Sequence record: MK373782.1
Length of the DNA: 64,000 bases
From: Escherichia phage vB_EcoM_KAW3E185
Strand: one strand, 5' to 3'
Shown one piece after another: positions 25,218 through 34,617 of this stretch (the first letter of the stretch is position 1; every line of letters starts with the position of its first letter). The notes below the pieces were generated by a model that searched no databases, was not told the DNA's origin, and saw nothing but the letters and a program-made list of their open reading frames with translations. Both the position numbers and the translations under genes were made by a program.

Positions 25218-25520
25218 TTAGATAGATGTAGGCTCTAATTTTATTTTCATGAACTCGGCAAATTGTCTGGCAGTTTTTATGCCTTGTTCATGACATTCAA
25301 ATGCATCATCACAGGGACTATTTTTGTAATGCTTTGCCATATACTTATAGAATTTTTCAGAATTCTCGACATTTTGAATTTCAAACAAAGTATATACGTT
25401 TTTAATCCCTGATTCCATAAAGTTATCAAAATATGGGTCGATATGTGCAGTACCAACGATAGGAGTTGTTGCTGCAAAAAACCCCAGCATCGCTATGACA
25501 GCTATCGCTCTTAAGGCCAT
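25218..25520 (-). CDS. hypothetical secreted/periplasmic protein (100 aa)
   Basis: N-terminal signal-peptide-like segment MALRAIAVIAMLGFFAATTPIVGTA. Confidence 0.5.
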   Translation of the reverse strand: MALRAIAVIAMLGFFAATTPIVGTAHIDPYFDNFMESGIKNVYTLFEIQNVENSEKFYKYMAKHYKNSPCDDAFECHEQGIKTARQFAEFMKIKLEPTSI

Positions 25521-26749: not shown

Positions 26750-26958
26750 AGCCATGTCACCTTTAAGCAATATTCTTCTACATGTTGTTTACGGCCTTTC
26801 TTATCAATAAAGGTATATTCAACGAATGTTCCGATGTAGTCTTTATCTACATCATGTGGACTATTAATTGGACATTTGGTACGGCAAATGCGTTCCCATT
26901 GACGAATAATTACTGCCTTATTCTTTGGGTCATATGGATGTGGATAATGTATATTCAT
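26746..26958 (-). CDS. hypothetical protein (about 70 aa)
   Basis: ATG at 26958 overlaps the upstream stop. Confidence 0.45.
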   Translation of the reverse strand: MNIHYPHPYDPKNKAVIIRQWERICRTKCPINSPHDVDKDYIGTFVEYTFIDKKGRKQHVEEYCLKVTWL

Positions 26959-27452
26959 AATAACGGTTCCCAATCAACAATCACAATTTCTAGTTTAGTA
27001 GAATACGTATCTAAAATCTCTTCGATGACATCCCAGTTTCCACCACCAATACCTGCACCAATTCTTGGCATATAAATTACAGGCTTTATTATCTTATTCT
27101 TTCCGAATTCATTTAATTCTATTATACAATTCATTAAAGCAGAGTACTCAAAATTAGGTCCCGGCTCAAACTGTGTATAAAGATTAAAGCAATAAGCTTT
27201 ATGGGTCTTAAAATATTTTTCATAAACCGAATAAGTCCCGAGTTTAGACTCGTCTCCGAATTCGGTTTGAAGTTTATCGGCTTCCAGAATTTTTGGATAA
27301 GCCTTTGCTAATTGGCCTGCTACACCGGCGCCCATTGTATGAAAACAATTACACCCATGAGCAATATTATTACCTTTAGAAAACAGGGCGACAATATCGC
27401 CCTTGATATAGTTTTTAATCACTTGCTGCAAGTCCTCTATTATAAGAGTCAA
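26955..27452 (-). CDS. macro-domain-like protein (putative ADP-ribose binding/hydrolase, 165 aa)
   Basis: IAHGCNCFHTMGAGVAGQL aligns with the macro NAAN...GGGV motif and PRIGAGIGGGNW with the second glycine-rich motif. Confidence 0.55.
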   Translation of the reverse strand: MTLIIEDLQQVIKNYIKGDIVALFSKGNNIAHGCNCFHTMGAGVAGQLAKAYPKILEADKLQTEFGDESKLGTYSVYEKYFKTHKAYCFNLYTQFEPGPNFEYSALMNCIIELNEFGKNKIIKPVIYMPRIGAGIGGGNWDVIEEILDTYSTKLEIVIVDWEPLL

Positions 27453-27762
27453 CTAGACGGTCCACCATAGAATTGCATGCTGCCTTATCTTTAGGTTCCG
27501 CCACCGAGCATTCTAATATTTGCCATTTTTTATAGTATCTTTTAATTAAGGTAGACGCCTTGAACCTACTAGACGCCCCGTCTTTTTCTCCGTCTTTATA
27601 CGCATATAACAATTTTTGTGAAAAATCTACTTTACACTCTTGACTTTTACCACAGTAATCAGACGCCGTTCTGTTTGTATACTCCGTTACATCAGTATAT
27701 GTAGTATTAGCAAGAGCGTTAAATGAAACCAAGCCAACTATTAAAGCCAACATTTTGGTCAT
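27415..27762 (-). CDS. hypothetical secreted Cys-containing protein (115 aa); positional candidate for T4 vs
   Basis: Signal-peptide-like N-terminus MTKMLALIVGLVSFNALA; sits in the vs position at the T4 vs length, but identity is unverified. Confidence 0.45.
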   Translation of the reverse strand: MTKMLALIVGLVSFNALANTTYTDVTEYTNRTASDYCGKSQECKVDFSQKLLYAYKDGEKDGASSRFKASTLIKRYYKKWQILECSVAEPKDKAACNSMVDRLVDSYNRGLAASD

Positions 27763-28301
27763 TCTTTTATTTCCAGTAGTTTATTTGATTTAAGGTAATT
27801 AGCCTTTTCTAGGACTTCAGAAGCATATTTACTTCCGGCACTTGTCTTCCATCCCGCATTATATGAGGATATAGCTTTTCTTATATCCCCGTTATGTATA
27901 TTTAACCAATAAGAAAATTCGATATAAGCCCATCTGGCTGAATTAGACCGCTTAGATAGCATTTTCTTAATTTGGGCATCAGTCATATTATAACCAAGCT
28001 GGTTAATTCTTGCCCTCATTGTCGGTAGATAATTTTGGAACATTCCATACGCATGGTGACCTTTCTTATCTTTAAGATTAATACCGGCAGATGATTCCTG
28101 CCATAGTATTGCGGCCATTATGTATCCAAGTCCTTTCTTATGCATATTTTCATGCGTTTTAAATTTTCCATCCTTAGAAAACTGTTCCCCAAACTGATAA
28201 GCATAATTCAAGTTATCGAGTTGGACATTACTAAAAGTATGCTCGGAGCTATGTGCTGATAACGAAAGAGCAAATAGACCAGCGAGTAGTGCTTTTCTCA
28301 T
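27759..28301 (-). CDS. secreted lytic-transglycosylase-like protein (SLT motif, 180 aa)
   Basis: Signal peptide MRKALLAGLFALSLSAHS; ILWQESSAG...YGMFQ resembles the SLT catalytic Glu-Ser and GLMQ motifs. Confidence 0.55.
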   Translation of the reverse strand: MRKALLAGLFALSLSAHSSEHTFSNVQLDNLNYAYQFGEQFSKDGKFKTHENMHKKGLGYIMAAILWQESSAGINLKDKKGHHAYGMFQNYLPTMRARINQLGYNMTDAQIKKMLSKRSNSARWAYIEFSYWLNIHNGDIRKAISSYNAGWKTSAGSKYASEVLEKANYLKSNKLLEIKE

Positions 28302-28309
28302 GTTTACCT

Positions 28310-28768
28310 CTAGATTTTAATCACTGCTTTAGAAGCTTTTCCTGGTAGTCGTTTACTGTTAATAATAGCCATTCTGCATTGAAGAGTCTTCATTTTGAAT
28401 GCTGGATTTTCGCGACAAACTGTAAGTCCTAACCAAAGATTTCCGTCAGTTATTTCTAAACGGCCTGGGCGATATTCGACACCTTCGACAAAATCTTCAT
28501 CAACATCTGGACGGGCCGGCATTGATAAAAATTCTGCAACTTCTTTAACATGATTTTTTACTTTATGAAATAATTCAAAAACGTAATTCTCATCTATTTC
28601 TCTCTGGATGGCACGATCTAAGAGATGTTGAGAATACTTGATATGAAAGCCTGGTAGTCCAAGAGACTTTGCAGCATCTTTTATACCGGCATTTATTTTG
28701 CGGAACTCCGTTTCAAAGATTCGACGGAGTTTATTACGGCGGATAAAAACGTCTGAATTGATAGTCAT
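28310..28768 (-). CDS. regB: endoribonuclease RegB (152 aa)
   Basis: MTINSDVFIRRNKLRR...QCRMAIINSKRLPGKASKAVIKI, near-identical to recalled T4 RegB. Confidence 0.9.
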   Translation of the reverse strand: MTINSDVFIRRNKLRRIFETEFRKINAGIKDAAKSLGLPGFHIKYSQHLLDRAIQREIDENYVFELFHKVKNHVKEVAEFLSMPARPDVDEDFVEGVEYRPGRLEITDGNLWLGLTVCRENPAFKMKTLQCRMAIINSKRLPGKASKAVIKI

Positions 28769-28779
28769 TTTGATTTCTC

Positions 28780-28825
28780 CTCTAGTTGACAGGTCTATAG
28801 TAACACAACTAGAGGAGAAGTAAAC
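28780..28825 (-). promoter_or_regulatory. early promoter of regB with 9-bp inverted repeat around the -10 (minus strand)
   Basis: GTTTAC-17nt-TACTAT flanked by CTCTAGTTG...CAACTAGAG. Confidence 0.5.
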
Positions 28826-28829
28826 TACT

Positions 28830-29045
28830 TTATTGATAAAATGGAGTTAAAGCCCAAGATTCTTTAGATACCATATTGGCGAAATGCCTCATCTCTTCGA
28901 TTTGGCGTCGACGCTGGTCAGCATAGTCTTCTTCGCCTTCTTCCTTACAATCTTCAAGGTCTTCTTCAAGATACTTTAAGTATTCACTACAAATTTTGTT
29001 GACCTTTTCTTGAAAGTCCAATAACCCAGTAATAGTAGAAGCCAT
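28830..29045 (-). CDS. hypothetical acidic protein (71 aa)
   Basis: ATG start; vs.3 position. Confidence 0.45.
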   Translation of the reverse strand: MASTITGLLDFQEKVNKICSEYLKYLEEDLEDCKEEGEEDYADQRRRQIEEMRHFANMVSKESWALTPFYQ

Positions 29046-29311
29046 TAGTATTTTTCCTCAGGTCGAAATACTGCACGACACGCCCACATGCTGGCTTCTT
29101 TTAGATGTTGCTTAGCATACTTAAGAGCCTGCACTGCATCCATATCTTCTTTGGTTTGTTGCTCTGTTTCATTTTCTTTCAAGATATATGCTTCTTCAAT
29201 CAGAGCATCAAACAACAATCCAAGACGGACTTCTGCATCTTTAATAGCGTTCACTTTACCGATTTTATCATCGGTATGCGGCTTGTAGCCTTTGATGTCT
29301 TCAATCGACAT
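29045..29311 (-). CDS. hypothetical protein (88 aa); positional candidate for vs.4 (Acb2 anti-CBASS sponge)
   Basis: ATG at 29311 preceded by GAGGAAA; size and position relative to regB fit T4 vs.4, but the sequence match is not verified. Confidence 0.4.
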   Translation of the reverse strand: MSIEDIKGYKPHTDDKIGKVNAIKDAEVRLGLLFDALIEEAYILKENETEQQTKEDMDAVQALKYAKQHLKEASMWACRAVFRPEEKY

Positions 29312-29525
29312 AAGGAATTTCCTCATCAGTGGCAAGGTCATATTCGACCAATTGGATAGGCTCATTAATACCATATCCACGTACAGTGATATCAGTTGTC
29401 GGATAGTTTCCGGTAATATCACCCATTCTAAATGCTTCAGTGAATGATTGCTCGCCTGAGCAACTAAACCAGGCGGCAAAACATTTTAAAACATCTTCAG
29501 ACCCTTCTATAATCAATTTAGCCAT
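29301..29525 (-). CDS. hypothetical protein (74 aa)
   Basis: ATG start. Confidence 0.4.
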   Translation of the reverse strand: MAKLIIEGSEDVLKCFAAWFSCSGEQSFTEAFRMGDITGNYPTTDITVRGYGINEPIQLVEYDLATDEEIPYVD

Positions 29526-29887
29526 TATAGACTCTCAGTAAAGGTGCGAGCGATAACGTCGCGCTGCTGTTCCGGAGTCAGGGAGTTAAAGCGAACTGCA
29601 TAACCAGATACACGGATGGTCAGCTGCGGATATTTTTCTGGATGCTTAACTGCATCTTCTAGAGTTTCACGACGCAGAACGTTAACGTTCAGATGTTGAC
29701 CACCTTCAATTTTAACTTTAGGGTAATGTTCAATTTCAATTTCACGGGCATGCAAACCGTAGAAAATTTCCGGGTCTACAATAGCGTCTTCTTTAAAAGT
29801 CTTAGAGACAATAATCCGGGCTTGAGTACCGTCTTCAAAATAAATAGTGCCTTTGTGTGTGCCTTCAAGAATTTGATATGCTTTCAT
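29525..29887 (-). CDS. autonomous glycyl-radical cofactor (GrcA/YfiD-like, 120 aa)
   Basis: C-terminal 60 aa ([60 protein letters not shown]) match what I recall of E. coli GrcA, including the RVSGY glycyl-radical motif. Confidence 0.85.
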
Positions 29888-34311: not shown

Positions 34312-34617
34312 TTATTTTCCTCGACATTCTTTAATGAAATTTTCTAGATTGGTAGATTCAATAGCTTTTTTACGAGCTTCTGCGTGTTCTTCTTCAGACA
34401 ATTTACATTTATAATTGACCCAGACGTTATGGTCGAAACTAGTCGTGGCATATAATAACAATGCTCCAACGAATAGCAAAAACGGCGATAAGAATACAAA
34501 ACCAGGAACACCATCCATACTGTAAGCCTTTTGTAATACTGCAACAGAAAGAGCTGCGTAAAAAAGTGATACAAATATTGTTAAAAGACCAATTCGGTTG
34601 GTTTCGCCTAATTTCAT
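34312..34617 (-). CDS. hypothetical membrane protein (101 aa)
   Basis: Hydrophobic N-terminal half; C-terminus NLENFIKECRGK. Confidence 0.5.
   Translation of the reverse strand: MKLGETNRIGLLTIFVSLFYAALSVAVLQKAYSMDGVPGFVFLSPFLLFVGALLLYATTSFDHNVWVNYKCKLSEEEHAEARKKAIESTNLENFIKECRGK

What the first reader, a model, noticed from the sequence alone, without database searches (positions are those of the whole stretch)
27415..28301. Two adjacent genes with signal peptides, one with a lytic-transglycosylase motif
The 180-aa protein has a signal peptide and an SLT-like catalytic motif (WQESS...GMFQ), and the neighbouring 115-aa Cys-containing protein also has a signal peptide. An exported muramidase separate from lysozyme e and the gp5 tail lysozyme could act in the periplasm during infection or superinfection.
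Basis: partly seen in the sequence, partly recalled or inferred. Interest (0 to 1): 0.35.

Follow-up and report, generated by a model that had tools for sequence, protein, structure and literature searches.

The report
T4-type vs.1–vs exported gene pair
These are the known T4-family genes vs.1 (a secreted cell-wall-cutting enzyme of the lytic transglycosylase type) and vs (the textbook "valyl-tRNA synthetase modifier"); the new point is that Vs itself looks like a secreted, disulfide-bonded protein that is always paired with vs.1.

Summary
On the minus strand, 27759-28301 (180 aa) and 27415-27762 (115 aa) overlap by ATGA. Both begin with a Sec-type signal sequence.

The window is an RB69-like T4-type phage (Mosigvirus, 99.6% identical to phage APCEc01). 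The two ORFs are vs.1 and vs, between regB and tk.4/adfM.

Vs.1 is a divergent GH23/SLT lytic transglycosylase:
- The Pfam SLT score is just below threshold for this protein, but 43 of 48 homologues match.
- The ES, GxxQ and YNxG motifs are invariant.
- E69 aligns with the catalytic Glu of Slt70.
This resemblance was published in 2006, so the finding as written is already known.

Across the family only four Cys and two Gly are invariant. Some members carry a lipoprotein box. The gene follows vs.1 in 56 of 70 vs.1 loci and was never found without it (34 of 34). In published transposon data for two phages, only these two genes in the neighbourhood show a shared fitness cost.

My best reading is a conserved periplasmic two-protein module, with Vs modulating Vs.1. 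That role is inferred, not shown. The conflict with the ValRS role of Vs is unresolved.

The parts
27759..28301 (-). vs.1 CDS (180 aa, stop included): exported GH23/SLT-type lytic transglycosylase
28248..28301 (-). Vs.1 signal sequence, residues 1-18 (MRKALLAGLFALSLSAHS), predicted cleavage AHS|SE
   Evidence: The hydrophobic character is conserved while the sequence varies across 70 loci. pLDDT is about 60 for residues 1-20 and above 90 afterwards.
28089..28103 (-). SLT motif I, WQESS (residues 67-71), with the predicted catalytic Glu69
   Evidence: E69 and S71 are invariant in 48 homologues. hhalign places WQES on RQES of E. coli Slt70, i.e. precursor E505, which I equate with the catalytic E478 of the mature protein from memory.
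28035..28046 (-). SLT motif II, GMFQ (residues 86-89)
   Evidence: G86, Q89 and N90 are invariant. The motif aligns with GLMQ of Slt70.
27852..27866 (-). SLT motif III, SYNAG (residues 146-150)
   Evidence: Y147, N148 and G150 are invariant.
28307..28310 (-). Shine-Dalgarno GAGG of vs.1, overlapping the regB stop codon
   Evidence: Sequence TCTAGAGGTAAACATG.
27415..27762 (-). vs CDS (115 aa, stop included): orthologue of T4 Vs ('valyl-tRNA synthetase modifier'), predicted exported four-helix protein with two disulfides
   Evidence: phrog_1256 E=1.8e-35. PF26829. 67% identical to the representative of the cluster that holds T4 Vs (VS_BPT4). AlphaFold four-helix bundle, pLDDT 86.
27709..27762 (-). 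Vs signal sequence, residues 1-18 (MTKMLALIVGLVSFNALA), predicted cleavage ALA|NT
   Evidence: pLDDT is below 50 for residues 1-13. Homologues in Karamvirus-type loci carry a lipobox LSGC at this position.
27634..27654 (-). Cys37 and Cys43 (CX5C) at the turn between helix 1 and helix 2
   Evidence: Invariant in 21 diverse family members. The disulfide is inferred; it was not measured on the model.
27475..27510 (-). Cys85 and Cys96 (CX10C; CX8C in distant members) at the turn between helix 3 and helix 4
   Evidence: Invariant. The disulfide is inferred.
27759..27762 (-). ATGA overlap of the vs.1 stop and the vs start (translational coupling)
   Evidence: The same tight junction, with a gap of -8 to +7 nt, occurs in the 54 loci with an intact Vs-like gene.
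28310..28768 (-). regB, the upstream neighbour in the same tightly packed gene string
   Evidence: Pfam REGB_T4 E=6e-69.
26955..27422 (-). tk.4/adfM macrodomain gene, the downstream neighbour; its probable GTG start overlaps the vs stop by 8 nt
   Evidence: Pfam Macro E=2e-6. Annotation of SA79RD. Junction sequence. AdfM function from bioRxiv 10.1101/2025.11.20.689424.

Best explanation
The two ORFs are vs.1 and vs of an RB69-like T4-type phage. They form a conserved, translationally coupled module of two exported proteins.

Vs.1 (shown by sequence and fold; activity inferred). It is made as a precursor with a Sec signal and released into the periplasm as a basic single-domain enzyme of about 18.7 kDa. 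It belongs to the GH23/SLT lytic transglycosylase class, with Glu69 as the general acid. By analogy it should cut MurNAc-GlcNAc bonds of murein and leave 1,6-anhydroMurNAc ends.

Vs (export inferred from several independent sequence features). It is exported as well. The mature protein of about 11 kDa is a four-helix bundle. Each of its two helical hairpins is probably stapled by a disulfide, using the four invariant Cys.

Expression (taken from T4 data). In T4 the RNA appears early and the proteins in the middle phase, long before lysis.

Most likely mechanism (inferred). Vs acts in the periplasm on or with Vs.1, as a regulator, inhibitor or targeting partner. The phage thereby gets limited, controlled remodelling of the host murein during infection rather than lysis. 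This improves phage yield and matters more in minimal medium.

Open point. The textbook role of Vs as a binder of cytoplasmic valyl-tRNA synthetase is not explained by this architecture. It may be a secondary property of the T-even clade.
For: Identity:
- 99.6% DNA identity to Mosigvirus phages, with the same gene order regB, vs.1, vs, tk.4.
- phrog_600 and phrog_1256 matches.

Vs.1 as an SLT-type enzyme:
- SLT match in 43 of 48 homologues.
- Invariant E69, S71, G86, Q89, N90, Y147, N148 and G150.
- Model pLDDT 90.
- E69 aligns with the catalytic Glu of Slt70.

Export of both proteins:
- Signal-sequence features pass a filter that only 7 of 111 window ORFs pass.
- The N-terminal hydrophobic segment is conserved in character but not in sequence.
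- The N-termini have low pLDDT.
- Across the wide Vs family only M1, four Cys and two Gly are invariant.
- Karamvirus-type Vs homologues have a lipobox, LSGC.
- Full-length N-terminally His-tagged T4 Vs was insoluble when made in the E. coli cytoplasm (PMC8076793).

Module:
- ATGA overlap of the two genes.
- A Vs-like gene lies directly 3' of vs.1 in 56 of 70 IMG/VR loci: 54 intact, one frameshifted, one with an internal deletion. These include Acinetobacter, Klebsiella, Serratia and Enterobacter phages.
- All 34 loci found by searching with Vs-type queries are on contigs that also carry vs.1 (searches compared with 57).

Function in vivo (published data for T4 and Bas37, not this phage):
- Both proteins are detected by mass spectrometry, with early RNA and middle-phase protein (PMC9697503).
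- Transposon insertions in vs and vs.1, but not in regB, vs.3, tk.4 or tk.3, are several-fold to more than 20-fold under-represented in T4.
- The same holds in a second phage, Bas37: vs 23.5 and vs.1 73.8, against 324-537 for the neighbours.
- Both drop further in M9 medium: vs log2FC -2.19, adjusted p 0; vs.1 log2FC -0.87, p 0.0055, adjusted p 0.155.
Against: - No enzymatic or localisation experiment exists for either protein.
- The Pfam SLT score of this particular protein is below the gathering threshold (18.8 against 21.3). No PDB relative is detectable by sequence alone.
- No dedicated signal-peptide predictor could be run.
- Classical genetics and biochemistry assign Vs to a cytoplasmic target, ValRS, including in vivo effects on a temperature-sensitive ValRS host. 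I recall this and could not re-read it here.
- The shared transposon phenotype could partly be a polar effect of vs.1 insertions on vs.
- 14 of 70 vs.1-like loci lack a Vs-like gene, so Vs.1 can work without it.
Confidence: 0.55

Rival explanations
1. Textbook reading. Vs is a cytoplasmic protein of about 10-13 kDa that binds host valyl-tRNA synthetase. Its hydrophobic N-terminus is not used for export, or only a fraction of the protein is exported. Its position next to vs.1 is just the tight gene packing typical of T4 early regions. Vs.1 acts alone as a periplasmic transglycosylase.
For: - All databases name the family 'valyl-tRNA synthetase modifier'.
- Papers cite Muller and Marchin 1975/1977 for binding to ValRS.
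- The T4 vs deletion has a defect specific to nutrient-poor M9Glc medium, which fits a translation-related role.
- The T-even-type clade has a strongly conserved C-terminal motif, SMVDRLVDSYNRGL, that the wider family lacks. It could be a clade-specific binding surface.
- vs is depleted more strongly than vs.1 in M9.
Against: - Vs has a canonical n-h-c signal sequence with ALA|N (ASA|D in T4).
- The only invariant residues of the family are four Cys and two Gly.
- Some members carry a lipobox.
- vs is strictly linked to vs.1, which is itself exported.
- There is no internal Met that could give a signal-less form.
- The full-length protein was insoluble in the cytoplasm.
Confidence: 0.25
2. Effector-immunity type pair. 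Vs.1 on its own is harmful to the infected cell because it causes premature murein damage. Vs is its dedicated periplasmic inhibitor and keeps it in check until late infection or lysis. This is a specific sub-case of the best explanation.
For: - The gene order is enzyme then small exported protein, with translational coupling.
- Some Vs-like proteins are predicted lipoproteins, as I recall several lysozyme inhibitors are.
- Most Vs-like proteins are acidic to neutral (median pI 6.5), while Vs.1 is always basic (pI 8.3-10.1).
- In M9, loss of vs alone (log2FC -2.19) is worse than insertions in vs.1 (log2FC -0.87).
Against: - vs.1 insertions are themselves under-represented in LB in both T4 and Bas37. 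Vs.1 is therefore beneficial, not merely toxic.
- The Vs of this window and of T4 is basic (pI 8.3-8.9).
- 14 of 70 vs.1-like genes have no Vs partner.
Confidence: 0.2
3. Vs.1 is an accessory lysis or superinfection factor: a third lysozyme-like enzyme that speeds lysis or acts on the wall when further phages attack.
For: - It is a periplasmic murein-cleaving fold, separate from e and gp5.
- Nolan et al. 2006 also suggested 'some role in cell lysis'.
Against: - Early RNA and middle-phase protein, not late.
- A Sec-exported active enzyme made minutes after infection would not wait for the holin.
- The gene is non-essential, and its insertion phenotype is a mild fitness cost rather than the near-absence of insertions seen for the holin gene t (1 of 65 TA sites hit).
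- No lysis phenotype is reported in the papers I could read.
Confidence: 0.15
4. Mis-assignment. The ORF called vs is not the gene for the ValRS-modifying tau factor. Another small ORF of the rI-e interval (for example vs.3 or vs.4) encodes tau, and 'vs' has only a periplasmic function.
For: - The predicted export conflicts with the cytoplasmic target.
- Several ORFs of 70-90 aa lie nearby.
Against: - I could not read the original cloning and sequencing papers.
- From memory, the assignment rested on cloned fragments.
- The mature Vs mass of 11.0 kDa fits the reported tau size of about 10 kDa, which favours the ORF being right.
Confidence: 0.07

Closest known systems
Bacteriophage T4 Vs.1 (UniProt P13311, Y06E_BPT4) and its orthologues across Straboviridae
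   Same: Orthologue: 83% identity, the same length, the same position between regB and vs, the same signal sequence and the same SLT motifs.
   Different: Nothing of substance. This is the Mosigvirus (RB69-type) allele. The function is as untested here as it is in T4.
Bacteriophage T4 Vs (UniProt P13310, VS_BPT4), 'valyl-tRNA ligase modifier', Pfam PF26829 / phrog_1256
   Same: Orthologue: 67-70% identity, 115 aa, the same four Cys, the same C-terminal SMVDRLVDSYNRGL motif, and the same overlap with vs.1.
   Different: The sequence architecture (signal sequence, invariant Cys pairs, lipobox variants, obligatory linkage to an exported enzyme) is not what the family name implies. ValRS binding was not testable here.
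Family 1 (GH23) lytic transglycosylases: E. coli Slt70, MltE/EmtA, MltC; Pseudomonas MltF and Slt
   Different: - Only 13-18% identical.
- Below the Pfam threshold for this protein.
- A minimal single domain of about 160 aa with its own conserved N-terminal helix (invariant Q27, N30, A34, G38).
- Soluble, not a lipoprotein.
- Encoded by a virus and expressed before lysis.
Specialised small transglycosylases controlled by a partner protein (EtgA with EscI in type III secretion; VirB1-type enzymes)
   Different: No secretion machine is known to be served here. Vs is unrelated in fold to EscI. The partnership is inferred from gene linkage only.
T4 Spackle (Sp) and bacterial periplasmic inhibitors of lysozymes and transglycosylases (Ivy, MliC/PliC, PliG; T6SS immunity proteins such as Tsi3)

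Membership tests
SLT / GH23 family 1 lytic transglycosylase (Pfam PF01464) | Match to the SLT profile at or above the curated threshold | tested here: inconclusive
   This protein scores 18.8 bits against a cut-off of 21.3, E=1.3e-3. 43 of 48 homologues match at E<0.01, best 1.3e-7. Many homologues carry a precomputed PF01464 hit.
SLT / GH23 family 1 lytic transglycosylase (Pfam PF01464) | Lysozyme-like all-helical GH23 fold | tested here: met
SLT / GH23 family 1 lytic transglycosylase (Pfam PF01464) | Catalytic Glu in an E-S motif, aligned with Slt70 Glu478 | tested here: met
   E69 and S71 are invariant in 48 sequences. hhalign puts WQES on RQES of Slt70, precursor residue 505, which I equate with Glu478 of the mature protein from memory (the alignment is short and weak on its own, E=0.13).
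SLT / GH23 family 1 lytic transglycosylase (Pfam PF01464) | Motif II (G-L/M-M/F-Q) and motif III (A/S-Y-N-x-G) | tested here: met
   GMFQN at residues 86-90 and SYNAG at residues 146-150. G86, Q89, N90, Y147, N148 and G150 are invariant.
SLT / GH23 family 1 lytic transglycosylase (Pfam PF01464) | Non-hydrolytic cleavage giving 1,6-anhydroMurNAc products | not testable with these tools
   Needs purified enzyme, sacculi and HPLC-MS. The lack of a second acidic catalytic residue was not examined on the structure.
Sec (type I signal peptidase) exported proteins | A basic n-region, a hydrophobic h-region of 10-20 residues, and a c-region with small residues at -3 and -1 | tested here: met
   Both proteins pass a crude filter that 7 of 111 window ORFs pass. 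The feature is conserved in all homologues although the sequence varies. SignalP itself was not available.
T4 Vs family (PF26829, phrog_1256, 'valyl-tRNA synthetase modifier') | Sequence orthology and synteny with T4 vs | tested here: met
   phrog_1256 E=1.8e-35. PF26829 on all homologues. 67% identity to the representative of the T4 Vs cluster. The same position 3' of vs.1.
T4 Vs family (PF26829, phrog_1256, 'valyl-tRNA synthetase modifier') | Binds and alters host valyl-tRNA synthetase | not testable with these tools
   Known only from biochemistry of the 1970s, cited. The original papers are not held.
T4 Vs family (PF26829, phrog_1256, 'valyl-tRNA synthetase modifier') | Cytoplasmic location, as implied by the named function | tested here: not met
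   The sequence predicts export: a signal sequence, only the four Cys and two Gly invariant, and lipobox variants. This is a prediction, not a localisation experiment.
Periplasmic proteinaceous inhibitors of lysozymes and transglycosylases (Ivy, MliC/PliC, PliG, Spackle, Tsi3) | Shared fold or sequence with a known inhibitor family | tested here: not met
Periplasmic proteinaceous inhibitors of lysozymes and transglycosylases (Ivy, MliC/PliC, PliG, Spackle, Tsi3) | Exported or lipoprotein, and genetically linked to the enzyme | tested here: met
   Signal sequence or lipobox. Directly 3' of vs.1 in 56 of 70 loci, and never found without it (34 of 34).
Periplasmic proteinaceous inhibitors of lysozymes and transglycosylases (Ivy, MliC/PliC, PliG, Spackle, Tsi3) | Binds and inhibits the enzyme | not tested
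It needs in vitro work.

The most novel reading that the evidence does not exclude
Vs, known for 50 years as the 'valyl-tRNA synthetase modifier' of T-even phages, is primarily a Sec-exported, disulfide-stapled periplasmic protein. It works with the Vs.1 lytic transglycosylase as a conserved two-gene murein-remodelling module of T4-type phages. The minimal-medium fitness defect of T4 delta-vs would then come from the cell envelope, not from translation. Under this reading the ValRS effect is a secondary, clade-specific property, or even binding that happens after the cells are broken open.
Probability: 0.3. Interest if true: 0.65.

Novelty: already known. Interest (0 to 1): 0.38.

Why it matters
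As written, the finding re-discovers two catalogued T4 genes. The SLT resemblance of vs.1 is in the literature and in some GenBank annotations.

What may matter is the neighbour. The biological role of the T4 ValRS modification is still described as unknown (bioRxiv 10.1101/2025.11.20.689424). vs was the strongest minimal-medium hit in that screen. The sequence evidence gathered here says Vs is built like a secreted protein and is locked to a secreted murein enzyme across T4-type phages of many hosts.

That gives simple, cheap experiments that could either confirm a long-standing annotation or overturn it:
- localisation of Vs;
- epistasis of delta-vs and delta-vs.1;
- a signal-less Vs.

It would also define why large lytic phages export a transglycosylase well before lysis.

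It further flags widespread annotation drift: vs.1 homologues are called 'RegB', and Vs is called 'valyl-tRNA synthetase'.

Tried and rejected
- Sequence search of both proteins, and of the vs.1 profile, against PDB chains gave nothing significant. NCBIfam gave no hit for either protein.
- The exhaustive phmmer search with Vs against 1.8 billion representatives found only 7 hits, one of them a spurious repeat protein. A profile search with the wide Vs alignment found only small PF26829 proteins. There was no fusion to an SLT domain or to any other domain.
- The promoter and terminator scan of 26800-29600 was no better than shuffled sequence and shows no promoter between regB, vs.1 and vs. I draw no conclusion from it.
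- hhalign of the vs.1 profile against single-sequence Slt70 is weak (probability 0.5%, E 0.13). I use it only to show which residues pair.
- The original T4 literature (Miller 2003, Muller and Marchin 1975, Valerie 1986) is not held. Statements about tau size and the in vivo ValRS data rest on my memory.
- The SignalP table of Nolan 2006 lists only novel ORFs, not vs or vs.1.
- I considered that vs.1 could be a lipoprotein or membrane-anchored. No lipobox is seen in this or most orthologues.
- I considered an internal start that would give a cytoplasmic Vs. There is no Met between residues 4 and 99.
- A reverse locus search with the wide Vs alignment failed for lack of a conserved stretch. I replaced it with two narrower searches.
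Full report
**What is there**

The window carries two minus-strand ORFs at exactly the stated coordinates: 27759-28301 (180 aa) and 27415-27762 (115 aa). The stop of the first overlaps the start of the second in ATGA. The first has a strong GAGG ribosome-binding site that overlaps the stop codon of the gene upstream.

A 1.9-kb stretch around the pair is 99.6% identical to Escherichia phage APCEc01 and 98.9-99.5% identical to the other best-matching phages. One of these, vB_EcoM_SA79RD, is classified as Mosigvirus, the RB69-like group. Those annotated genomes, and T4 itself, show the gene order regB, vs.1, vs, tk.4, then tk.3 to tk.

The neighbours confirm the setting:
- 28310-28768 is RegB (Pfam E=6e-69).
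- 26955-27452 is the Macro-domain gene tk.4, recently named adfM, an anti-DarT2 factor.

The 180-aa protein is Vs.1 (phrog_600, E=3.7e-67; 83% identical to T4 Vs.1). The 115-aa protein is Vs, the 'valyl-tRNA synthetase modifier' (phrog_1256, E=1.8e-35; PF26829; 67% identical to the representative of the T4 Vs cluster).

**Checking the observation**

The WQESS and GMFQ motifs are residues 67-71 and 86-89. A third SLT motif, SYNAG, is residues 146-150.

Both N-termini have the three parts of a Sec signal:
- Vs.1: MRK-ALLAGLFALSLSAHS|SE.
- Vs: MTK-MLALIVGLVSFNALA|NT.

No signal-peptide predictor was available, so I wrote a crude filter. It requires a basic residue in the first 8 positions, an uncharged run of at least 10 residues with high hydropathy, and small residues at -3 and -1. 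Only 7 of 111 ORFs of at least 80 aa in the window pass. Three of these are opposite-strand ORFs that I take to be spurious, and one I take to be the exported lysis-inhibition protein rI; neither reading was checked. Two adjacent real genes both passing is not a chance pattern.

In alignments of homologues, the first 20 or so residues change freely in sequence but stay hydrophobic. AlphaFold gives them low confidence, while the rest of each protein is above 90.

Lysozyme e (about 32.4 kb) and the gp5 lysozyme domain (about 48.2 kb) are also in the window. Vs.1 is therefore a third murein-directed protein.

**Vs.1 is a divergent SLT/GH23 enzyme**

Sequence evidence:
- The Pfam SLT profile scores 18.8 bits, just under the cut-off of 21.3.
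- 43 of 48 homologues match SLT at E<0.01, best 1.3e-7.
- Across 48 homologues down to 41% identity, the invariant residues include E69, S71, G86, Q89, N90, Y147, N148 and G150. These make up the three classical family 1 motifs: E-S, G-x-x-Q and Y-N-x-G.
- Sequence searches against PDB chains find nothing.

Structural evidence:
- The AlphaFold model is confident (pLDDT 90, pTM 0.83).
- Foldseek agrees, at weaker E-values.
- A profile alignment to E. coli Slt70 pairs WQES with RQES at precursor residue 505, which I equate with the catalytic Glu478 of the mature protein. It pairs YGMFQ with SGLMQ.

Whether the enzyme makes 1,6-anhydro products cannot be tested here.

This resemblance is not new. 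Nolan et al. 2006 reported a marginal but conserved SLT match for vs.1 in six T4-like phages and cited earlier PSI-BLAST results (PMC1524935). Some GenBank records already call the gene 'SLT transglycosylase', and NCBI names homologues 'transglycosylase SLT domain-containing protein'. The family is large. tblastn finds it in 2052 phage records, including Ackermannviridae and Felixounavirus.

**Vs looks like an exported protein**

Searches with Vs reach few relatives. An exhaustive phmmer search finds 7 hits among 1.8 billion representatives. tblastn finds it in 795 phage records.

I then looked directly downstream of vs.1 in 70 IMG/VR loci:
- 54 have an ORF of 99-122 aa starting within -8 to +7 nt of the vs.1 stop. 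Each has a hydrophobic N-terminus and a pattern of four Cys, CX5-6C then CX8-10C.
- Two more have the same gene in damaged form: one frameshifted (L040) and one with an internal deletion (L025).
- An HMM built only from the T-even-type Vs proteins recognises all but one of these ORFs.
- Pfam PF26829 covers the proteins found with a profile of 21 diverse family members.

The family therefore extends to T4-type phages of Acinetobacter, Klebsiella, Enterobacter and Serratia (examples).

In an alignment of 21 diverse members, the only invariant positions are Met1, the four Cys and two Gly. That is the signature of a disulfide-stabilised extracytoplasmic protein.

The Karamvirus-type members start MKKLFVLLVVFALSGCK, a textbook lipoprotein box.

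The AlphaFold model of Vs (pLDDT 86) is a four-helix bundle. Cys37 and Cys43 flank the turn between helix 1 and helix 2. Cys85 and Cys96 flank the turn between helix 3 and helix 4. I could not measure S-S distances, so the disulfides are inferred.

Full-length N-terminally tagged T4 Vs was insoluble when made in the E. coli cytoplasm (PMC8076793). That is what one expects of an uncleaved precursor that needs disulfides, but it is weak evidence.

Predicted cleavage gives a mature Vs of 11.0 kDa in both this phage and T4, against 12.9-13.1 kDa for the precursor.

**The two genes form a module**

Linkage:
- The linkage runs one way. 14 of 70 vs.1-like loci lack a Vs-like gene: Aeromonas-type phages, phages of about 178 kb, and two jumbo contigs.
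- All 34 loci recovered with Vs-type queries lie on contigs that also carry vs.1 (searches compared with 57).
- No fusion protein was found.

Expression. In T4 both genes have early RNA and middle-phase protein, and both proteins are seen by mass spectrometry (PMC9697503).

Transposon data from the HIDEN-SEQ preprint:
- Both genes are non-essential.
- In T4 liquid LB competitions, insertions average 26.6 (vs) and 22.6 (vs.1) reads per site. The neighbours average 178.6 (regB), 652 (vs.3), 289.6 (tk.4) and 767 (tk.3).
- A second LB control gives 33.9 (vs) and 15.0 (vs.1) against 650 for vs.3.
- In a second phage, Bas37, the values are 23.5 (vs) and 73.8 (vs.1) against 324-537 for the neighbours.
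- In M9 glucose, vs drops further (log2FC -2.19, adjusted p 0). So does vs.1, more weakly (log2FC -0.87, p 0.0055, adjusted p 0.155).
- The authors confirmed the M9 plaque defect with a clean vs deletion and noted that the role of the ValRS modification is unknown.

These two genes, and only these two in the neighbourhood, share a mild fitness phenotype in two phages. A polar effect of vs.1 insertions on vs could contribute. However, insertions in regB, which lies just upstream, are not depleted.

**How it most likely works**

Supported by sequence and predicted fold: Vs.1 is an exported single-domain GH23/SLT enzyme with an intact catalytic centre.

Well supported by sequence: Vs is exported and its fold depends on four Cys.

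Shown by comparative genomics: the two genes are inherited as a coupled pair.

Inferred: Vs acts on or with Vs.1 in the periplasm, giving controlled murein remodelling well before lysis.

There are precedents for a small SLT enzyme being governed by a partner protein, such as EtgA with EscI (PMC10880428, listed). From my own knowledge, Ivy inhibits lytic transglycosylases and T4 Spackle inhibits the gp5 lysozyme.

A pure toxin-antidote relation is unlikely, because vs.1 insertions are themselves costly. Still, vs loss is worse than vs.1 loss in M9, and most Vs-like proteins are acidic to neutral while Vs.1 is always basic. Both points leave room for a restraining role.

**The unresolved conflict**

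The textbook function of Vs is to bind cytoplasmic valyl-tRNA synthetase. I could not re-read the original work. From memory, it includes a tau factor of about 10 kDa and in vivo effects on a temperature-sensitive ValRS host.

The mature mass of 11.0 kDa fits the reported size better than the precursor does. That would mean the purified factor had been processed.

The T-even-type clade has an invariant C-terminal motif, SMVDRLVDSYNRGL, that the wider family lacks. ValRS binding could therefore be a clade-specific addition.

I cannot decide between three options: dual location, a secondary property, and a mis-assigned ORF. The experiments are listed under next steps.

**Verdict**

The finding is real, but as stated it re-describes known genes with a known SLT resemblance, so its novelty is 'already known'.

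The early-to-middle expression and the mild, non-lysis phenotype argue against a lysis role.

The added value is the evidence that Vs is a secreted partner of Vs.1. That makes an old open question about T4 directly testable.

Noticed in passing
L005:1399-2013 (Salmonella phage SS9); also the records and source names listed: Several vs.1 homologues are annotated or named 'RegB', 'endoribonuclease' or 'site-specific RNA endonuclease'. Examples are SS9 QEI24293, slur04, JK23, and the UniRef names of P0010 and P0044. The SS9 protein has a signal sequence and the W-R-E-S / FQN / SYNAG motifs, so it is an SLT protein. The name has drifted over from the neighbouring regB gene.
   Followed up: partly
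many phage records: Vs is often mis-annotated as 'valyl-tRNA synthetase' (the enzyme) instead of its modifier.
   Followed up: no
L040:3040-3400 (Enterobacter phage PG7-type contig) and L025 (vB_EcoM_005-like contig): Two naturally damaged Vs-like genes. In L040 the lipobox-type gene is split by a frameshift. In L025 an 85-aa form lacks the segment that holds the first Cys pair. Both phages keep an intact vs.1.
   Followed up: partly
L036, L037, L038 and L061, directly downstream of vs.1: Karamvirus-type Vs homologues start MKKLFVLLVVFALSGCK, a lipoprotein box with Lys at position +2. They are probably outer-membrane lipoproteins, whereas the T4 and RB69 forms look soluble.
   Followed up: partly
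window 29525-29887 (-): The vs.6 product (120 aa) ends with a glycyl-radical motif (RVSGYAVRF), like the small stand-alone glycyl-radical proteins of bacteria (GrcA/YfiD type). The Gly_radical match is already noted in Nolan et al. 2006.
   Followed up: no
window 26955-27452 (-): tk.4, a Macro-domain protein, was recently named AdfM, an anti-DarT2 factor in T4. The longest ORF starts at a TTG at 27452. Annotated relatives start at the GTG at 27422, which overlaps the vs stop by 8 nt.
   Followed up: partly
window 25218-25520 (-) and 34312-34617 (-): Two more small proteins have hydrophobic N-termini. One is a 100-aa protein just downstream of the tk cluster, probably the lysis-inhibition protein rI. 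The other is an unassigned 101-aa protein with an N-terminal transmembrane-like segment.
   Followed up: no
protein cluster of P0002: The 90%-identity cluster whose representative is T4-type Vs.1 (181 aa) also lists several 113-aa members named 'valyl-tRNA ligase modifier'. This is odd for two unrelated proteins. It may reflect the overlapping gene calls or a clustering artefact.
   Followed up: no
T4 and Bas37 transposon tables (bioRxiv 10.1101/2025.11.20.689424): In the LB versus M9 comparison, insertions in nrdA, nrdB and td become less harmful (log2FC +1.4 to +2.3), and regA insertions become more depleted (log2FC -1.40). This is unrelated to the finding.
   Followed up: no
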